A stretch of 64,000 bases of DNA from the human T2T-CHM13v2.0 reference genome, Homo sapiens, in the NCBI RefSeq assembly GCF_009914755.1, contig NC_060927.1, one strand, 5' to 3'. Within the stretch, counting starts at the first letter, position 1; every line of letters begins with the position of its first letter. Shown here one piece after another: positions 24,741 through 64,000 of the stretch. Made by a program: the position numbers and the translations under genes. The notes under the pieces were generated by a model. That model did not search any database and was not told the origin of the DNA. It saw only the letters and a list, made by a program, of their open reading frames with translations.

Positions 24741-27734
24741 ACAATAGTTATAATATTGCAAAAATAAAAACAACTGACAATGTGTGTTAAAACAAATGAC
24801 ACTGTTCGAACACAGAAGAAGAGTTTAAGACTTTGAAGATAATAGACTCCATGGAAAAATACAAAGTATTTACAATAAAATAAAAAATAACAGCACTATT
24901 TCTAGATTGAAATCATGGGACATGGAAAAGATAAAATAAAATTGAATATAATCTTTGTTTATCACCATATTGAAGTAAGAGATAAGATAGTAAAAAACAG
25001 GAGTAAGTGAATTTTTTTACATACATATAGTATAGGTGTTTTTACCTGACCAAGTGGCAAAATAAAGAAAAAAAGAAAAGGAAAAGAAAATCTCTACATC
25101 AACCAAGTAAGTCCTCAAACTAGTAGCACTGTACGTGTGACAGCATAACATCAAAGTCACCATGACACACATTCCTATGGTCTTCTTTCCACACACTAAA
25201 AGTAGATACATTCAGGCCAAATATACAACAAAATTAAATCTTTCTTAAGGTCTGCAGAGTTCTTCCCCCTTGGACTCTTTTTTCACCTTTATATTTTACA
25301 GTGATAGATATAAGTTTCTTTCTAACTAAAAATCTATGATTCTTTGGTACTTTTACAATTAATTTAGGTGCAAACCTCTGATCTCTATCTCTGTGGCACC
25401 TATGGCAAGGCTCAAAGCTATCAGGAGAGGCAGAAAGAAGAGCTACGGGTATACAGAGTTAACAACAAACTTCAAGTATAGCTGCTTCTCCCAATTTAAA
25501 AGTAAAAATGCAACAGAAGTCTCCAAGGTCAAAATCTCCTCTGTTCTGCTCTTCTCCATGAACAACTTCTTTTTATACTCACGCAAAACCTTTGACCCCT
25601 AAGAAGCCTAACAGCCTTCATAATGATGTCTCAAAAATAACTCTTTATATGGTATCCAGTGCATAATGGATTCAGAGACATGAATAAAACATCTTAATTT
25701 TCAAGTATTTCTTTTTAAATTAATTTTTGAAAGAAAAATGTCTTGTAAAGAAAGAAGGTTTTTTTAAGGCATGCAGCTCTTGCATAGAAGGATATAGTTT
25801 TCATGGCCTGTCTTGTTAAAAATGTCCTAGTACCCATCTGATGCACACTTATTTATGGATTTTAGACTAAAAGCTCTTTTTTGCCGGTTTTCTTCACAAG
25901 CACTTATCTCGACATCCTCATTAGGTGTTTTTTTTTTCTTTTCTTTTTTGTTGAGGCCTAGTCATGCCCTTGGTACTCTCTTTTGTTCCATGCTGCAAAA
26001 GGAATGGTTTTTAAAGGCTCCCTCTCCACCAGTCCCACCTTTTTTTTCTTTGTAATTAGCCTTATTTGAGGACCAGAAAAGCAAAAGACTGGAAAAAATA
26101 CAAAAACTATTGAACAAAAGATAGGATGTTTTTTCCCCCAACCATATGCCGTACAGCTCATGTACAACCTGGGTCAGATGACTTGCATATATGCCTTTAA
26201 AATGAAAAGTGAAAGAAAAAAGAAAGGAAAGGCATTGACTTACACAGCAGCTGCATTGGTATAAACAGGCTCAGAGTAAATGTCACAATGAAAGGAGAAT
26301 AATACATTTTATCTTTATTGCAAAAGTAATTCACTTTAAAACCAAAGAACATGATGAAACTAGGTGCCTGATGACAATACTTGCAGGTAGCCATTTGAAA
26401 TATCTTAATATTAATTTGGTTTAATTAGAATGAGAGAAACAATTTTCTTTCTTCAAATGCAAATGCTTTTTTATTGGAGCAACACACAACTGAAATTGTT
26501 CAGCTCTTTCCTTTAAAATGGGTTCATTAGAATTGTTTTGATGCAGTGATGATTAATGAAACATTTTTTCTGCCTTCTCTTTCCTTAGTTTACTTACTAT
26601 TTAACAGCCTATGTCTAAGTAAAGGGCCAAGGGATTTATACTATCCTTGCCTCTAGAAACAAAATTCTAGCTTTCAAAATATTAAAATTTATAAATAATA
26701 ACTGGACTTTTGGGCCTATAATAGAGTTGCTCACTTCAAAAAAAATTTTTTTGTACAAATATGGTTCTATGAAAATGATTATCAAAGGCAGCTTTAATGA
26801 GAGAAATGTTAGGAAAACTAAGGATTCTGGAAATACAGTTGTCAAGAAGCCAACCAGTCTTCTTCCCTCCTCTAATCCATGAAGAAAATACTTTATCAAA
26901 ATATGGGCTTTCTTTGTTGTTTGTTTTCCATGCTGATTAGGCAAGCATGAGTCAATATCCAGAAGGAAACATAAGGCATACTCTCACTGGGTAATTTAAG
27001 GAGAGTTCAATACACAGACTATCTCCAAAGCTATGAAACAGGTTCAGGAAAACCAAAAAGGGGTAGTGTTGATATCAACTTCCAATCCTAGGCCTGAAGG
27101 GGAAAAAGAAAGAAACCACTATTGAATCTACAGAGGTAACTATGTGAAATAAATATGGCCTTTGAAAGAGACTTGTGGGCAACCCACAAGACTTGGCAAT
27201 GCAGAAGGTAAAGGAACACATGCACCATCCATTCTCTCCTCCTGCCCTCTGATTTTCTGCAGATGTTTCACATTAGACAATCTCACCTGGGAACCAAAGA
27301 ACAAGGAAAGCCATCCACATAGATAAACGTTCCAGGCATCAAGCAGTTGGAGACAGAATCAGAAGCAAATTAACGTTATCCTTATTTTTTTTAAGTCATC
27401 AATAAGTACCTCTTTTTCTCTGCTTTTTATTATAGATACAGCCATCTATTCTCCTTAAGCTTTCTTTTCTTTTTACATCAAATCAGTTTAATTAAATTTT
27501 TTAGGAACAATTTTGAACAGTGAGCTTATATCCTCTTAATTATTTTAGCAATTCAAAGAGCTCAAGATACCTAAAAATGTTAATGCTTTCTTCTCACCCC
27601 TATTGGGTGTACATTGATTAATGGATATAGCCATTTCACTCAGCAAGTATTTATTGAGTACTTACCATATGCAAGGCACTATCCGAGAACCATGGGGTAC
27701 ACAAAGGTAAATCAAGTAAGGATGCTATCACTAG

Positions 27735-28186
27735 CATATATCTCTGGTTTTCTCTTTCCTGCATCCCTTTCTGTTTTTTTTTCTGCCACCCATGATCAGA
27801 CACAAGATTGGGCACATGATTTAGGCCTGACAATCAGTATGCCCCTTCCTCCTGACCAAAGTGATAAGCCAAGACAGACAAATTGCCTAAGTTAGATCAC
27901 TACAGTTTTATTTGGAACTTTCCTGCCATATTTATCAAGAAAGAGGTACTCTTTCAAATGGAATTGTTCAGTGAAAAACATGCAGTCAAACTGAGATAAA
28001 GAGCTGAAAAGGAGAGAGAGACTAAGACTCCAGCCCAGCTATTCCTGGCCCCCATTCAACTTCTCAGTGTTCTGAGACAGTAAATTATCTTGTTTGGGAT
28101 AATACGTTAGTCAAATCTTATCTGGTTACAAGGGATAAAATCATATGATTTTATCCCTTGTAACCAGATAAGATTTGACTAACGTA
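27735..28186 (+). mobile_element. Old MLT1-type LTR; its 3' terminus forms the right arm of the palindrome
   Basis: ttgggcacatgatttaggcctgacaatcag...ttctcagtgttctgagacagtaaattatctt...cttgtaaccag...tgactaa resembles an MLT1 3' end. Confidence 0.5.
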
Positions 28187-28192
28187 TTATCC
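28097..28192. repeat. Perfect 96-bp palindrome (two 48-bp arms, no spacer)
   Basis: ggataatacgttagtcaaatcttatctggttacaagggataaaatcat|atgattttatcccttgtaaccagataagatttgactaacgtattatcc, checked base by base; centre at 28144/28145. Confidence 0.98.
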
Positions 28193-28282
28193 TCAAGAAG
28201 TTTATATCTAATAGATAAGATATGTGTGTATGCAAAACACAAAATATAGTTATAAATGGATTTTTTAAAAGATAGAGTTCAA

Positions 28283-28843
28283 CCATTTGATTCAGCACTC
28301 CCACAACTGGGCATCTACCCAGAGGAAAAGAAGTCATTATACGAACAAGATTCTTGCACACACATGTTTATAGCAGCACAATTCATGATTGCAAAAACAT
28401 GGAACCAACCCAAATGCCCATCAATCAATGAGTGGATAAAGAAATTCTGAGAGGTACATATATATATATGACGGAATACTACTGAGCCATAAAAAGGAAT
28501 AAATTAATGACATTTGCAGCGATCTCGATGAGATTAGAGACTATTATCCTAAGTGAAATAATTCAGGAATGGAAAACCAAACACTGTATGTTCTCACTTT
28601 TAAGTGGGAACTAAGCTATGAGGATGCAAAGGCATAAGAATGACACAATGGACTTTGGGGACTCAGAGGGAAAGGGTGGGAAGGGGTGAGGGATAAAAGA
28701 CTACAAATAGGGTGCAGTGTATACTGCTTGGATGATGGGTGCACCACAGTCTCACAAATCACAACTAAAGAACTTACTCATGTAACCAAACACCACCTGT
28801 TCCCCAATAACCTATGGAAATAAAAAATTTTAAAAAAATAAAA
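28283..28843 (+). mobile_element. 5'-truncated L1PB1-like LINE-1
   Basis: L1PB1-type 3' end; perfect 17-bp TSD taaaagatagagttcaa (28266-28282 / 28844-28860). Confidence 0.92.
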
Positions 28844-30287
28844 TAAAAGATAGAGTTCAAGGAGGCTAGGTTTACTTACAGAAGCAATTATCTGAACAGT
28901 CGAGGCAATTAAGATGTCATCTGAACTAAGACCTAAATCATAGATGAAATTGTGGGCAAGTTGTTCATTGGGGGGAGGGGCACAGAAAGAGGTAGCAGAT
29001 GTGGTATTTGTGTATTTGTATTTCACAAAGAAAGTGAGGTGAATAATACAGTGGGGAACATGTTACAATCTATTACTTGTGAGAACACAAACATTTAAAC
29101 AATGTATATGACTCCAAGAATATATAGAACATTATTTAACAATGGTTGAATTTTGATAGTAGGACTGCATATAATTTTTTTTCTTTGTGCTTTTCTACTT
29201 TTCAGACTGCAGTTTGGAATAAGTAGAAAATAGAATTATTTATTACATGAAAAAATGCCAAAATCTATCAAAAAAGGGGAGGGTGTCACAATTAATGTTG
29301 AGTTTTAGAAATATTAATTCTTAAGCTCATTTAGTTTTGAATTGTTTGAAGACTGACGGTGCATTGGTCAACAACAGTTCTTAATTTCACGCCCACAAAT
29401 TCAAGGGTAGAATTCACTCAGACCATTGCAGCTCTAGGCTTCATGCCACTTACTGTTTTTACAGGTTGCCTAAGATCAATGTATGTGTCAGGGAACTTGT
29501 TATCACACTTTTTTATCACTTTAGGAAACTAGATTTTTAGTACACAGTTTTATCAAGGAGAGCCCAAAATTCAAAGAACATAATGGCATGAACCTAACAA
29601 AACCATCAAAACCTGATAAATTCAAGCAGATTATGTAAGTGGTGGGGCTGCATCAAAAACTAGGAAGAGTTTGAGCATTCGTTTACATGAGGGAAAAATT
29701 GATTTTATTTGTGTAAAACTAAACAGGACTAAATGTGAACATACCAGCCTCCATCCATTTGAACTGACAAAGTGAAAACAAAATGCCTTTAAAAATTAAT
29801 TGAGGTATTTTAAAGACTATGCCCAGTTTAGACTCAAGAGGAGTTAACAATCTTCTCTCTTCTGTCACTCCTGAAAAATATTTTTTAAAAAGCCCTCCAG
29901 TGTATCTTAGGCTGTTATAGACACTATTATTTTATCAATTAACCTAAACAGGCTTATAATCAGAATTTAGAAAATAAATTATTAGCATCCTTCCTCCCCA
30001 GCCGACTTTAATCTTCTCAACAGTCTTCTTTTTCCTTTAGTTTTAGGTGGTACTCATTAGCTTTTAAGGGCTAGGGAGTTTGGGAAAGCAGAAAGAGAAG
30101 GATTTAGATCCCTCAGAAAATAAAATTGAAGACTATTTTATGGACATCACAGAAATATTTTGTCAGGTTAATCTTTATTATTTCTTTCAGGTATTGTTTG
30201 TTTTGCTACTAGAGCTTCTTTTTATAGTTCCAAGATGAAATATGATTTGTATGTATTTCTTTTACAAAATGTCTAAGTATGCATTAG

Positions 30288-30343: not shown

Positions 30344-30363
30344 TAATCTGATAGATTAGACAG

Positions 30364-30426
30364 ATATATATATGTATATATATACATATATATATACATA
30401 CATATATACACACATATATATATATA
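30364..30426. repeat. (TA/CA)n microsatellite
   Basis: atatatatatgtatatatatacatata... tract. Confidence 0.9.
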
Positions 30427-30539
30427 ACCCTGCTGTTTGACATATAGGATTTAATTATTTCAAATTTTGGAGTGGGCTGAACAATTAACATCACTATGCT
30501 AAAGAAAGACTCATGATAATTTCAAGAACCATGCTAATG

Positions 30540-31663: not shown

Positions 31664-32031
31664 TGTATTAGGCCATTCTTTGCACTGCTATAAACAAATA
31701 CCTAAGACTGGGTAATTTATAAAGAAAATGAATTTAATTGGCTCATGGTTCTGCAAGTTGTACAAGCATGGCATCAGCATTTGCTCAGCTTCTGGGGAGA
31801 CCACAGGAGTTTTACTCATGGCAGATGGTGAAACGGGAGCAGGCACTTCACATGCCACACACTTTTAAACAACTAGATCTTGCAATAATTCACTTACTAT
31901 TGGGAGGACAGCACCAAGCCATGAGACATCTGTCCCCACAGACCCAACACCTCACACCAGGTCCCATCTCCAACATTGGAGATTATATTTTACCATAAGA
32001 TTTGGGTGGAACAAATATCAAAACCATATCA
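31664..32031 (-). mobile_element. MSTB-like MaLR solo LTR nested in an older MLT1 LTR (~31450-32300)
   Basis: tgtattaggccattc...actgggtaatttataaag...aaaccatatca. Confidence 0.85.
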
Positions 32032-43999: not shown

Positions 44000-44522
44000 C
44001 TTCTTAACAGCTATTCCCTTCTTCCTTATTTACATGACTTCAATTTTGTGAAGTTCCTATCCTCCTCTGCAGTGCCATAGACTTTAAGAAAGGTTGGCCC
44101 AGTCCCATCTCTGGAAAGCATCCTGAGTGATCTAAATTGATAATGATTTCTTATTTTTCTAGGCATGAGCAGGCAGCTCAGTTATGACCAATGAGAGACA
44201 TGCAGGAAAGTCAGCTATAGGACTCTGGAGACATAGAAAACACCAGTTTATTTTCAGCCTCTGGATTTTGTCATGTCTAGATGAGATGCTAAAACTGTTG
44301 CAGCCATCTTGCAACGATGAAAAGAGGTATTGGGAGGACAGAGCCAACACAGTGGTAGGGGCAGAGCCATGAGAATACCCAAGAAGAGCCGGAGCTCTAG
44401 TTACACTGAACCTGGAGCTGCCCTTTCTTTAGAATTCTTGTTATGTGAAATAACTCTCATGCTTCTGATCAGTCTAGTCAGGGTTTTTTGTTACTTCAGG
44501 CAGTAAGCATCTAATTAATACA
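44000..44522 (+). mobile_element. Old MLT1-type LTR
   Basis: gcagccatcttgcaacgatga...tttttgttactt...catctaattaataca terminus. Confidence 0.6.
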
Positions 44523-46229
44523 TTTATGAGTAGAGAAAAAAACTTCACAATCCTTAGGCTGTGTAGAAGCTGGATGTGGCCACTGAAGCAGAAATCAAGA
44601 GCCAAAAGGGGTCAAACAGACATCAGGACAAACAGACCATGGGCAGGAGGAGAAAATAGGGAATAATGGTCAACAAGTAATAATGGTGAACAAAGCTAAA
44701 ATGCACAGACTCCAAAAAAGTAGGCATCGAGGTTGGAGAATCTTACAACCTGTCTTATTTCTTTCCTCCCTTCCTTCAACTATCATTCACTGAGCACATA
44801 CTGTATTCCAGTGCACATTTAGGAACTGGACATTCAGAGGTGGACAGGAACAATGGGGCCAGAGCCCTTGGGAGGCTTGCATCCAAGAGAATCACTGGCA
44901 AGTTAGGGCCTAGGATTACATTCTGGAGCAAGAAAAAGGAAAGTGGACACATGCACAGGCCCAGATAAAACTCTGGTTGCAGCTGAGATGCTATTTCTGC
45001 TGCTGTCTTCCACATGTGGATACCTCCATCTAGGCTTCAAAGGAGCCAAGAATGACTTCTGACCGCAGACAAAAATATTAGGGAATAAGCCATGCTAAAG
45101 AAAGAAAACTCTTCAGAAGGCCACTATGGAAACCCTGATATTGGTAAAACAGCCCTCAGAGAGAGAAAAGTCACTTTTATTAAAAATATAACATGAGGTG
45201 GATAGTGGTGCTTGGCAAACTATTTTTCTCCTCAGGTAAGCAATAGTCTAAGTTGAGGAGGTCAAATAAGATCAACTGAACAGCTCCGTGGAAATCTGTT
45301 GGTAAGTTCATTCTCAGTAGGAGAAAAAAATGGCAGTAATGTCTGCCATGGGTACAGAAAAAATGGCAGCCATTTGGAAACCCATTTGCAATAGCCTAAC
45401 TGCAGGAAAATGTGAAATAAGAGAAGTTTTGACTCCCATTCCTATGGGAGAAATTATTTTGTAGCTGAGAGAAAAACAGAGCCAAAATATAAAACTATAC
45501 TTATTTTTCTTCTTGTGGTCAAACTTATGCCATAAAAACTGCGAATCTTGACATTGGCAAGTACGCATTCCTGAGTGTTGAGCAAAAAAATGAATCAGTT
45601 GACCTAAGCATCTCTTAAATGCAAAGTACAATATTACTTATACAATTTAAAAGTAGATTTTACCATATTATTTATGATCCTGTGAGATTTACTTAAAGTG
45701 TACTGAATGTTTATCATTTGTACATTAAATCTGATAACACCTTTTCTTTGCATTGAATTGCAAATGGCTGTGTTACCTAATGTCGTTCTACTTTGCATAT
45801 GCTCTACTTTATTTACAAACATATTAAAAATATCCACTTATACACATTTATGCTCTCTTTTCAAGGCAATATGGCTAAGCATTTTATTAAAATGTATAAT
45901 TATTGCTAAAAATAATTGTGTTTGTTAGCACATTATGAGAGCATAAAGACTAGTTTTTATTCATTTATTTATTCACTCATTCAACAAATATTTGTGGAAT
46001 ACCTATTAATTGCCAGGTGTGAGAACACTGGGTTAAAAGCTAGATTTATCACCAAAAGTCTGTTTATAAACCTAATTTTCTACTGCAGCCTTATGATGGA
46101 ACCAGTTAACCATGAATTATTTGTACCAAGGTCTAAATAATGAATCAACACAAGACAAAAAAAAACCTTGATGGGACATGAGAACTAAGTTTTGGGGGCA
46201 AAAGCAGAGTTGGGGCAAGGCCAGATTCA

Positions 46230-46595
<366 letters not shown>

Positions 46596-62699: not shown

Positions 62700-63950
62700 G
62701 AAAATATAGAATACACCCATGACCTTGCCAAAAATTTTGACAAAATCAAAATTTAAATAAATCTGTATCACAAAATACCATAAACAAAGTTCAAAGAGAC
62801 ATGAAAGATTTGGAGAAAATATTTGTAACGTATATGATTAGAACATGAATTAGTATCCAAATTTTACAAGAAAACCTACAAAACAATAGAAAAAGATAAA
62901 CCACACAAGAGAAAAATGTGCAAAGGATATAAATAAACCATTCACAAAAGTAAAAATACAAATGACCAAGAAAAGATGCTAAATCTCACTAATAAACAGG
63001 GATTTGCAAATTACAATCACGATAATAGCATTCTGCATTTTAAAACTTGGCAATATCAATTCTTAGCAATACTCTAAAGAAATGGGAACTGCTATATAGA
63101 AAGCAATATTCTAAAGAAATGAGAACTGCTGATAGAACTGAAATTGGTACAGATACTTTGGAAGCTAATTCAGCGGTATTTACTGAAACAAAAAATATAT
63201 ATATACACCCTCTGTGACCCAGTAATTCCACTTCTCATTAACTTTCCTTGTTCCCATGCAAAAGGAAACATTTTTATATTGTCAAAATTATTGACAAAGT
63301 TTATTATATTTTACTATACTTTAAAATAGCAGTTAAATAAAATGCCTGTTGTACTAGCCATAACCTACACATTTTTGTAGGCAGGTATTATCTTGAGTGT
63401 ATTAATATAATTGATCTCTTTCATATAATTATTATGTGTAAAGAATTATGTTAAAAGTTAGTAAGTTATATAGAATTATTTTTAAACATGAAAAAAAAAA
63501 AAACAACCAGAAACAACCTAAATGATCATCAATAAGGGAAGTGCTAAACAAAAGTTATTATAATCTCAGGTTTTAAAATGGGGGTATATTTTTGTGTATT
63601 AACATGTACTGGTCTCCAGGACAAATTACCAAGTAAAGTAGAACATGGTAGAACATGGTAGAACATTATATATATAATTCATATATATATATATATATGA
63701 ATTCTATTTATGTTAAATAAAAACAATACAATACTATATATTGTTATGATTTTGTAATAATGACATGTAAGTGCAAAGAATAAGGTCTGGAAGAATATTT
63801 AGAGAGTTGTTTATAGCGGTGAACTGGAGAGACAGTGAGAGGGGCTGAAATTCAAAGCAGAGATTAAAAAAGGACTTTAGTCCCATGTTTCAGTTTCTAC
63901 TAAGACAATATATTTATTTGTGACAAGTAAAAATAATTTTTAAAATTAAT
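62700..63950 (+). mobile_element. Ancient L1ME-type 3' fragments
   Basis: ttggagaaaatatttgtaa; tgtgcaaaggatataaa; tgacccagtaattccactt; aaacaacctaaatg. Confidence 0.65.
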
Positions 63951-64000
63951 CACAAATATTTTTATTTCAGAACATTTGAAGAGGTAGGTTACTATATATC

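What the first reader, a model, noticed from the sequence alone, without database searches (positions are those of the whole stretch)
28091..28200. Perfect 96-bp palindrome with no spacer, apparently made by fold-back duplication of an old LTR end
Seen in sequence: the two 48-bp arms (28097-28144 and 28145-28192) are exact reverse complements with no loop. Both arms keep an intact CpG (acgt), although they sit in heavily decayed repeat DNA. Beyond the arms the flanks stay partly complementary (left cttgtttg-ggat; reverse complement of right cttcttga-ggat). I do not recognise it as a MITE. Inference: the right arm (ttttatcccttgtaaccagataagatttgactaa) resembles the normal 3' end of the MLT1 LTR just upstream. 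The left arm would then be an inverted copy that overwrote part of the LTR, which is the signature of replication template switching or quasipalindrome correction. Zero mismatches suggest a recent event or ongoing arm-to-arm correction. Established knowledge: long perfect palindromes can extrude cruciforms, stall forks and break, and if transcribed they form a fully paired hairpin that ADAR or Dicer could act on.
Basis: partly seen in the sequence, partly recalled or inferred. Interest (0 to 1): 0.75.

Follow-up and report, generated by a model that had tools for sequence, protein, structure and literature searches.

The report
Fold-back copy inside an old LTR
A perfect 96-base palindrome on human chromosome 3 is real and was most likely made when the last 42 bases of an ancient retroviral LTR plus 6 bases of its flank were copied backwards over about 18 bases of the same LTR, an ordinary example of a known mutation type.

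Summary
Window 28097-28144 and 28145-28192 are exact reverse complements with no spacer, and the sequence is unique in the reference genome.

It lies at the 3' end of a real, old, multi-copy LTR. A sequence profile of 40 other copies matches the window on the + strand (23.0 bits, E 1.8e-6; minus strand 12.7 bits).

Searched apart, the DNA left of the palindrome matches profile positions 45-134 and the right arm matches 158-194. The right arm is therefore the native LTR tail.

The left arm occupies the place where other copies carry a median of 18 bases. The copied stretch runs 6 bases past the family's 3' boundary, so the event came after integration.

None of 40 other copies has a comparable inverted repeat. 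This fits a single template-switch (fold-back) mutation, a well-described class.

The LTR is probably older than about 60 My. The palindrome is much younger, but zero mismatches only bounds it to roughly 23-57 My or less.

I could not confirm the name MLT1 with these tools. No function is shown. Interest is modest.

The parts
27620..27730 (-). Neighbour: fragment of another old interspersed repeat. I recall it as the 3' end of LINE-2; no call confirms that name.
   Evidence: A whole-genome DNA search with 27620-28270 gave 4 non-self hits, all confined to 27635-27682. Local BLAST extends them to 27635-27729 at most.
27805..28186 (+). Solitary LTR of an old multi-copy family with the architecture of ERVL-MaLR LTRs. 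The 5' bound is uncertain and may lie further left. The 3' bound is firm. Compared with the longest copies, an internal stretch of roughly 90 nt is absent.
   Evidence: Profile R2, built from 40 copies, hits 28029-28184 on the + strand at 23.0 bits, E 1.8e-6, model 45-194 of 196. MAFFT with 10 long copies aligns the body from about 27805. That part is seen by eye only and pairwise BLAST does not support it. The family's 3' boundary lies 4 nt after the shared heptamer, which is 28186. There is no CpG in 27805-28096, where 12.1 are expected.
28029..28096 (+). LTR stretch just left of the palindrome ('piece A'). It contains a poly(A)-signal-like hexamer at 28079.
   Evidence: Searched alone, 28029-28095 scores 9.7 bits, E 4.2e-4 in 1.1 kb, model 45-134. 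AGTAAA at 28079.
28097..28144 (-). Left arm: an exact inverted copy of 28145-28192, sitting where other copies carry a median of 18 nt of LTR.
   Evidence: On the minus strand the profile reaches only 12.7 bits, against 23.0 on the + strand.
28145..28192 (+). Right arm, the source of the copy. 28145-28186 is the native LTR tail and 28187-28192 is 6 nt of non-LTR flank.
   Evidence: Searched alone, 28148-28184 scores 10.4 bits, model 158-194. The motif taken from this arm finds 20 other places in the genome against 1 in the control, and 14 of the 20 share the LTR tail. Boundary.
28097..28192 (.). The perfect 96-bp spacerless palindrome. It is 68.8% A+T and unique in the genome.
28084..28096 (.). 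Left outer flank. It is LTR-derived and partly complementary (8 of 13) to 28193-28205, which may have served as microhomology for the first switch.
28193..28205 (.). Right outer flank. It is non-LTR DNA and the partner of 28084-28096.
28283..28844 (+). Neighbour: a later retrotransposon insertion of 562 nt with an A-rich 3' end, flanked by a perfect 16-nt target-site duplication at 28267-28282 and 28845-28860. I recall it as a LINE-1 3' fragment.
   Evidence: RefSeq masks 28351-28511 and 28527-28748 as repeat.

Best explanation
One local template-switch (fold-back) mutation struck the tail of an old solitary LTR long after the LTR had integrated.

DNA synthesis moving through the LTR left its template after 28096. 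It copied 48 nt in reverse-complement sense from the stretch that is now 28192 down to 28145. That stretch is 42 nt of LTR tail plus 6 nt of flanking host DNA. Synthesis then returned to the original template at 28145.

In the four-point description of PMC5453318, point 1 is 28096, point 2 is 28192, and points 3 and 4 coincide at 28145. The copy replaced about 18 nt of LTR, a net gain of about 30 nt. Because points 3 and 4 coincide, the result is a palindrome with no spacer.

Shown: the exact inverted copy, the colinear LTR pieces, the missing LTR stretch, the inclusion of non-LTR flank, and the absence of the structure in other copies.

Inferred: that it was a single event, that it occurred at a replication fork, which strand served as template, and when it happened. 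I assign no function. The palindrome is best read as a neutral by-product. It can form a hairpin or cruciform and may therefore be prone to breakage or length change.
For: - The arms are exact and spacerless and unique in the genome.
- The LTR family is real. A 28-nt stretch of one copy finds 49 places at up to 3 mismatches, against 0 in the control. One good copy gives 146 candidate places, of which 40 were scored.
- Orientation: profile R2 scores 23.0 bits on + and 12.7 bits on -.
- The pieces searched apart are colinear, with model positions 135-157 missing.
- The copies carry a median of 18 nt there (quartiles 17-18, range 9-18).
- The distance from the poly(A)-like hexamer to the LTR end is 108 nt in the window. 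It is a median of 79 nt in the 9 of 40 copies that keep such a hexamer. That is +29, which matches 48 minus 18.
- Identity among copies falls to background (0.27) from the fifth base after the shared heptamer. The arm therefore includes 6 nt of flank, and the copy was made at this locus.
- There is no pre-existing inverted repeat in the family. The longest perfect one in 40 copies has 9-nt arms. Folding at the same centre gives a median of 13 of 48 pairs against a background of 12.
- Literature, passages read: template switches with copied fragments of 25-125 bp occur in human variation, and the longest pattern is 318 bp (10.1101/2021.11.26.470150). A total of 53,666 putative events were found in genic DNA of the primate lineage, and 31,007 of them made a new stem (PMC10710096).
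Against: - The ancestral allele was not seen. No other primate genome, human haplotype or read set was available, so 'what was replaced' rests on other copies of a diverged family.
- The support for piece A is moderate: 9.7 bits. Pairwise tests had no power: BLAST found nothing, and in global alignments 28 of 300 shuffles matched the observed mean identity.
- The two bases next to the left junction are not complementary to the right flank, so the microhomology is imperfect.
- A break-repair origin gives the same product and cannot be told apart here.
Confidence: 0.75

Rival explanations
1. Same product, but made during repair of a double-strand break inside the LTR. The 3' overhang on the right side of the break folded back on itself and was extended using itself as template (snap-back synthesis, as by polymerase theta). 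It was then joined to the left end, with loss of about 18 nt.
For: A deletion combined with a reverse-complement insertion templated from the immediately adjacent DNA is the pattern of snap-back synthesis (PMC4912351, passages read). The partial complementarity of the outer flanks (8 of 13) could equally have served the final join.
Against: Reported snap-back tracts are short: a median insertion of 7 bp, with tracts of 8 and 15 nt described in that paper. This copy is 48 nt. A zero-length spacer needs a symmetric turn. Nothing in the sequence separates this rival from a fork-based switch.
Confidence: 0.2
2. Two steps. An older inverted copy (or a chance quasipalindrome) at this locus decayed. 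Its inner 48+48 nt were later made perfect again by quasipalindrome correction, or are kept perfect by repeated arm-to-arm correction.
For: The outer 13 nt on each side are more complementary than chance (P about 0.01). The arms are flawless while the surrounding LTR is heavily decayed (no CpG in 292 nt). The classic model converts near-perfect repeats into perfect ones (PMC5453318).
Against: The left outer flank is explained by LTR homology, since it lies inside the piece that matches model positions 45-134. The family has no quasipalindrome at this position. Zero differences in 96 sites is expected for a median of 5-13 My without any correction. The step from 0 of 48 to 5 of 13 mismatches is what a single event with a sharp edge would give.
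Confidence: 0.1
3. Assembly or library artefact: the palindrome is not in the cell line's DNA.
For: None from my calls. Reads could not be consulted.
Against: By my own reasoning rather than any call: the palindrome is short, lies in unique sequence, and replaces about 18 nt rather than merely adding sequence. Fold-back library chimeras are read-scale and would not survive a consensus of many reads.
Confidence: 0.03
4. A palindromic mobile element (MITE-like), or two LTR copies inserted tail to tail.
For: Palindromic shape only.
Against: There is no other copy in the genome. A 120-nt query and a 28-nt pattern at up to 3 mismatches hit only the two arms. Two independent insertions of a family whose best copies are 69-87% alike would not be identical. 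They would not share 6 nt of flank, or a CG that 0 of 40 copies carry.
Confidence: 0.01

Closest known systems
Template-switch mutations, four-point model (Loytynoja & Goldman 2017, PMC5453318; Loytynoja 2022 preprint 10.1101/2021.11.26.470150; Monttinen et al. 2023, PMC10710096)
   Same: A short fragment is replaced by the exact reverse complement of nearby sequence in one step, which creates a perfect stem. The 48-nt copy lies within the reported range.
   Different: Points 3 and 4 coincide, so there is no loop at all. The ancestral state is inferred from paralogous LTR copies, not from an outgroup. I did not find this locus in the passages I read.
Ripley-type quasipalindrome correction
   Same: It yields a perfect inverted repeat by intra- or inter-strand switching.
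   Different: It needs a pre-existing near-perfect inverted repeat. The family shows none at this position.
Polymerase-theta snap-back templated insertions (PMC4912351)
   Same: A deletion combined with a reverse-complement insertion copied from the adjoining DNA.
   Different: Typical tracts are several-fold shorter, with a median of 7 bp.
PATRRs and other long human palindromes (PMC7999016; catalogue PMC7680136)
   Same: A spacerless or near-spacerless palindrome able to form a hairpin or cruciform. Longer arms, higher identity and a shorter spacer raise the risk of instability.
   Different: PATRRs are several hundred bp long and more than 90% A+T. This palindrome is 96 bp and 68.8% A+T. 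The catalogue counts 69,888 palindromes longer than 50 bp and 783 of 100-200 bp. It allows up to 4 mismatched pairs, and the longest are AT-rich. This one is uncommon but not unique in kind.
ERVL-MaLR LTRs of the MLT1 group
   Same: An abundant, very diverged interspersed repeat with a sharp 3' end, a poly(A)-signal-like hexamer about 79 nt before the end, and a terminal A. Print places MLT1 before the radiation of placental mammals (PMC10735291, PMC3836709).
   Different: No repeat library was on hand. Five loci where print places named MLT1 elements gave no match or only weak matches.

Membership tests
Template-switch mutation (four-point model) | The inserted fragment is the exact reverse complement of sequence nearby | tested here: met
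   48 of 48, directly adjacent.
Template-switch mutation (four-point model) | The fragment replaces ancestral sequence between points 1 and 4 | tested here: met
   Model positions 135-157 are missing between the colinear pieces. The copies carry a median of 18 nt there. The hexamer-to-end distance is +29 nt. All of this is inferred from paralogues, not from an orthologue.
Template-switch mutation (four-point model) | The ancestral allele is observed in an outgroup or another haplotype | not testable with these tools
Quasipalindrome correction (Ripley) | A pre-existing near-perfect inverted repeat at the site | tested here: not met
   40 copies folded at the same centre give a median of 13 of 48 pairs (maximum 21), against a background median of 12. 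The longest perfect inverted repeat has 9-nt arms. This test uses paralogues, so a locus-specific precursor is not excluded.
MITE / palindromic DNA transposon | Many dispersed copies of the same palindromic unit | tested here: not met
   Only the two arms themselves are found in the genome.
MITE / palindromic DNA transposon | A target-site duplication flanking the unit | tested here: not met
   The bases flanking 28097-28192 are not direct repeats of each other (read).
LTR of an endogenous retrovirus (generic) | An interspersed multi-copy family with a sharp shared 3' boundary | tested here: met
   49 pattern hits against 0 in the control. 146 candidates, 40 scored. Pairwise identity falls from 0.42 to 0.27 four bases after the shared heptamer.
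LTR of an endogenous retrovirus (generic) | Termini TG...CA | tested here: inconclusive
   At the 3' end, 14 of 40 copies end in CA and 28 of 40 end in A. The window ends in TA. The 5' end could not be defined.
LTR of an endogenous retrovirus (generic) | A poly(A) signal upstream of the 3' end | tested here: inconclusive
   A hexamer is kept in 9 of 40 copies, a median of 79 nt from the end. The window has AGTAAA at 28079.
ERVL-MaLR, MLT1 group | A match to a curated MLT1 model (Dfam or Repbase) | not testable with these tools
   No repeat library was on hand. RefSeq's masking carries no names and does not mask this LTR.
ERVL-MaLR, MLT1 group | Similarity to copies that print names as MLT1 | tested here: inconclusive
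   The MIR558 (MLT1C) and MIR3927 (MLT1H2) loci gave nothing. The region upstream of PPCS (MLT1B in print) gave 11.6 bits, E 0.0014, but the hit lies in AT-rich DNA that does not look like an LTR. The DDX10 first-exon region (MLT1D in print, antisense) gave 7.3 bits, E 0.03, on the expected strand. The tail of a MaLR-type LTR upstream of NT5C1B was not significantly similar (17 of 500 shuffles as good, and a reversed control scored nearly as high).
ERVL-MaLR, MLT1 group | A 5-bp target-site duplication | not tested
   It needs the 5' end, which I could not define.
PATRR | Several hundred bp long and more than 90% A+T | tested here: not met
   96 bp and 68.8% A+T. Definition from PMC7999016.
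Known RNA family (Rfam miRNA precursors) | A score at or above the family's gathering threshold | tested here: not met
   The best hit is MIR6440 at 68.5 bits against a threshold of 95. Several unrelated hairpin families hit both strands. This is what any perfect hairpin gives.

The most novel reading that the evidence does not exclude
The palindrome is a very young, perhaps human-specific or still polymorphic, template-switch allele. Its perfect 46-48-bp stem is transcribed and feeds small-RNA or RNA-editing pathways. Alternatively, its perfection is actively maintained by hairpin-templated correction, which would make it a natural reporter of that process in the human germ line.
Probability: 0.1. 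Interest if true: 0.55.

Novelty: new member of a known kind. Interest (0 to 1): 0.3.

Why it matters
The locus is a clean, textbook-quality example of how one replication or repair slip can turn decayed retroviral DNA into a perfect hairpin-forming sequence. Both the donor (the LTR tail plus 6 nt of flank) and the overwritten target can be identified from other copies of the family.

Such events are the proposed raw material for new hairpin RNAs (PMC10710096). Spacerless palindromes of this length are candidates for fork stalling and breakage (PMC7999016). If the site proves polymorphic or lineage-specific, it could serve as a dated marker of template switching.

No gene is annotated in the window. 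I have no evidence of transcription or function, so it matters mainly as an example.

Tried and rejected
Finding relatives of the LTR by whole-genome DNA search failed. Queries 27620-28270, 27760-28096 and 28145-28268 returned only themselves, plus 4 hits to the neighbouring repeat.

A random sample of twenty 10-kb stretches plus the rest of the window gave no nhmmer hit at E<=10 and no convincing BLAST hit. A self-search of the window also gave nothing.

Pairwise BLAST of 27700-28096 against 60 fetched loci gave nothing. The best plus-strand hit had E 0.15, and a minus-strand hit did better at E 0.008.

Column identities on the 40-copy alignment were too noisy to date anything (mean 0.475, K2P 0.94). 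Optimised global alignments gave shuffled sequences 0.60 identity against 0.64 for real pairs. For piece A, 28 of 300 shuffles reached the observed mean. I draw no date and no support from those two calls.

The first profile (R1, 14 copies) did not separate the strands well and did not find piece A.

Naming the family from print failed, as set out in the membership table. A 15-letter stretch of one copy is in no searchable paper. The original description of the superfamily (Smit 1993) is not held.

Rfam gave only sub-threshold generic hairpin matches.

Rejected readings are the MITE, two LTRs tail to tail, PATRR and a known miRNA; the reasons are given under rivals and membership. The supplementary tables of the template-switch papers and of the palindrome catalogue were closed. 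They may list this locus.

Full report
1. The observation.

Reading outward from the centre 28144|28145, the window shows exactly 48 complementary pairs and then a mismatch. The arms are 28097-28144 and 28145-28192, with no spacer. The repeat finder sees the same structure as 61-nt arms at 92%, because 8 of the next 13 pairs also match.

The next longest spacerless perfect palindrome in the 64 kb has 16-nt arms and lies in a TA-rich simple repeat. With a local chance of 0.267 per complementary pair, a 48-nt arm is expected 9e-19 times in a genome of this size.

As a single strand, the 122 nt around it fold into one hairpin. As DNA the energy is -53.1 kcal/mol (z -20.2). As RNA it is -81.2 kcal/mol (z -17.6). 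No shuffle folds as well.

The palindrome is 68.8% A+T and has one CpG per arm, at 28105 and 28183.

2. It is not a repeated element.

A 120-nt query across the palindrome finds only itself on both strands in the whole reference. A 28-nt stretch of the arm with up to 3 mismatches finds only the two arms, and the control finds 0. The search tool warns that it skips common words and closed regions. Even so, a family of palindromic elements would have shown up.

3. The surrounding DNA is a real, old LTR.

Direct searches with the LTR body found no relatives. I therefore searched with two short motifs of the right arm at their natural spacing. That gave 22 places against 1 for the reversed control. 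Two of the 22 are the arms.

Of the other 20, 14 share about 110 nt of alignable sequence upstream of the motif. The remaining 6 look like chance hits.

A 28-nt stretch of one of these copies then found 49 places at up to 3 mismatches, against 0 for the control. One well-kept copy used as a query gave 146 candidate places. Forty were scored. The 39 non-self hits are 69-87% identical, and all lie in the 3' half of the query.

Among 40 copies, ungapped pairwise identity is 0.43 just upstream of the stretch used for selection. It is 0.42 over the four bases that follow the shared heptamer, and 0.27 and 0.26 beyond that. So the family has a sharp 3' boundary. In the window that boundary is 28186.

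The last base is A in 28 of 40 copies, and the last two are CA in 14 of 40. A poly(A)-signal-like hexamer survives in 9 of 40 copies, a median of 79 nt from the end. These are the features of the U5 end of a retroviral LTR.

4. How the window fits the family.

A sequence-only profile of the 40 copies (R2, 196 positions) scores 23.0 bits on the + strand over 28029-28184 (E 1.8e-6 in the 64-kb window, model 45-194). On the minus strand it scores 12.7 bits over 28105-28237. A palindrome reads the same on both strands, so the difference of about 10 bits comes from the flanks. The DNA to the left continues the LTR, and the DNA to the right does not.

Searched apart, the left piece matches model 45-134 (28029-28095, 9.7 bits, E 4.2e-4 in 1.1 kb). 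The right arm matches model 158-194 (28148-28184, 10.4 bits). The right arm's score is partly by construction, because the copies were selected with a motif from it. The left piece is independent of that selection.

Twenty-three model positions fall between the two pieces. When the pieces are added separately to the family alignment, the 40 copies carry a median of 18 nt there (quartiles 17-18, range 9-18). The window has the 48-nt left arm in that place.

The hexamer at 28079 lies 108 nt from the LTR end, against a family median of 79. That is +29, which agrees with 48 in and about 18 out.

Further upstream, a MAFFT alignment with ten long copies lines the window up from about 27805. A stretch of roughly 90 nt present in those copies is absent from the window. 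That part rests on inspection only, because pairwise BLAST does not support it. I give the 5' bound as uncertain.

5. The event.

The right arm is native: 42 nt of LTR tail (28145-28186) plus 6 nt of host flank (28187-28192). The left arm is its exact inverted copy. Since the copy includes host flank, it was made at this locus after integration and is not a property of the element.

Other copies confirm this. The longest perfect inverted repeat (spacer up to 12) near the tail of the 40 copies has 9-nt arms. Folding each copy at the equivalent centre gives a median of 13 of 48 pairs (maximum 21), against 12 for random centres. So there was no family-borne quasipalindrome to 'correct'.

The pattern is replacement of a short fragment by the reverse complement of adjacent sequence. 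That is how the four-point model defines a template-switch mutation. The model notes that an inverted repeat arises when the copied fragment overlaps the sequence after the return point (PMC5453318, section 4 read in full). Here points 3 and 4 coincide, which is why there is no loop.

The outer flanks are complementary at 8 of 13 positions (P 0.0086 binomial, 0.0097 empirical). The left flank is itself LTR sequence. I therefore read this as pre-existing imperfect microhomology that may have helped the first switch, not as the remains of longer arms. The step from 0 of 48 to 5 of 13 mismatches is abrupt (Fisher P 2e-4).

I cannot tell whether the switch happened at a replication fork (intra- or inter-strand) or during break repair by snap-back synthesis. 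The 48-nt length fits published template switches. These include copied fragments of 25-125 bp, a longest pattern of 318 bp, and a 30-55 nt stem class. It fits polymerase-theta snap-back tracts less well, since their median is 7 bp.

6. Ages.

The LTR. The best 39 genomic relatives of one good copy have a median identity of 77% over local alignments. Under a star-like history and a recalled neutral rate of 2.2e-9 per site per year, that gives at least about 62 My per lineage. This is a lower bound, because only the best hits and the best-conserved stretches are counted.

The LTR body has no CpG in 292 nt, where 12.1 are expected. If the family is MLT1, print places it in the ancestor of placental mammals. 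It is present across eutherians and absent from opossum, with two exceptions (PMC10735291, passages). It was 'active before mammalian radiation', and orthologous copies are at least 90-98 My old (PMC3836709, passages).

The palindrome. Any change at 96 sites breaks perfection. I used recalled germ-line rates of 0.4-1.0e-9 per year at ordinary sites and ten times that at the four CpG positions. Perfection then lasts a median of 5-13 My, and the 95% bound is 23-57 My. The event is therefore far younger than the LTR. 'Recent' could still mean anything from a segregating human allele to an event in early catarrhines. No correction mechanism is needed to explain zero mismatches.

The CpG in each arm is not an old survivor. 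None of 40 copies has CG at that place. It looks like a change in this copy that preceded the duplication.

7. Family name.

RefSeq's masking has no names and does not even mask this LTR.

I tested five loci where papers place named MLT1 elements:
- MIR558 (MLT1C) and MIR3927 (MLT1H2), named in the table of PMC10671384.
- The regions upstream of PPCS (MLT1B) and NT5C1B (MLT1E1A), and the first exon of DDX10 (MLT1D), named in PMC3836709.

They gave nothing or only weak profile hits. The best was 11.6 bits, E 0.0014, in DNA that does not look like an LTR. The DDX10 hit was on the expected strand at 7.3 bits, E 0.03.

The tail of a MaLR-type LTR upstream of NT5C1B looks similar in layout by eye but not statistically.

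I therefore file the element as an old LTR with ERVL-MaLR-like architecture, probably of the MLT1 group, with the subfamily unknown.

8. Function and significance.

No gene is annotated in the window. RefSeq lists one enhancer-type element 1.8 kb upstream. Rfam gives only sub-threshold matches of several unrelated miRNA hairpin families on both strands. This is what any perfect hairpin produces.

The review I read states that longer arms, higher identity and a shorter spacer raise the recombinogenic risk of palindromes (PMC7999016, passages). By that rule this site is a candidate for instability, but it is much shorter and less A+T-rich than PATRRs.

The hg38 catalogue counts 69,888 palindromes longer than 50 bp and 783 of 100-200 bp, with up to four mismatched pairs allowed. 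The longest are AT-rich (PMC7680136, passages). A perfect 96-bp palindrome of complex sequence is uncommon but not unique in kind.

9. Verdict.

The finding is a new member of a known kind: a template-switch-generated perfect inverted repeat inside an ancient solo LTR. Interest is modest. It would rise if the allele proved polymorphic, lineage-specific or transcribed.

Noticed in passing
window 44378-44522 (+): A second LTR-like tail. Profile R2 scores 17.8 bits (E 7.5e-5, model 21-169). The sequence runs on to an end whose last letters resemble those of the family's copies. It is probably a related but different old LTR subfamily.
   Followed up: partly
window 28283-28844, with 28267-28282 and 28845-28860: A 562-nt retrotransposon 3' fragment (recalled as LINE-1) with a perfect 16-nt target-site duplication, inserted 75 nt to the right of the palindrome. 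The perfect duplication suggests it is much younger than the LTR. I found no link to the palindrome.
   Followed up: partly
window 27620-27730 (-): A fragment of another old repeat (recalled as the LINE-2 3' end) abuts the region to the left of the LTR. Four other genomic places match 27635-27682 at 87-91% identity.
   Followed up: partly
window 30354-30436: A TA/CA-rich simple repeat that holds the window's second-longest spacerless palindrome (16-nt arms). It draws sub-threshold Rfam hits (mir-297, mir-1277), an effect of low complexity.
   Followed up: no
window 26198-26287: RefSeq lists an enhancer-type functional element ('active region_19620') 1.8 kb upstream of the palindrome. It is the only annotated feature nearby.
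   Followed up: no
window 46142-46242 (-), 31694-31768 (-), 44645-44774 (-), 63846-63979 (+): Weak R2 profile hits (9.8-11.7 bits, E 0.006-0.023). They may be further decayed LTR fragments or chance matches.
   Followed up: no
locus L036, oriented positions 395-496: In one family copy, a stretch just upstream of the tail matches (71% over 104 nt, E 5.6e-9) the start of a MaLR-type LTR that lies in opposite orientation upstream of NT5C1B (L088). This is an unrelated neighbouring insertion, not part of the family.
   Followed up: partly
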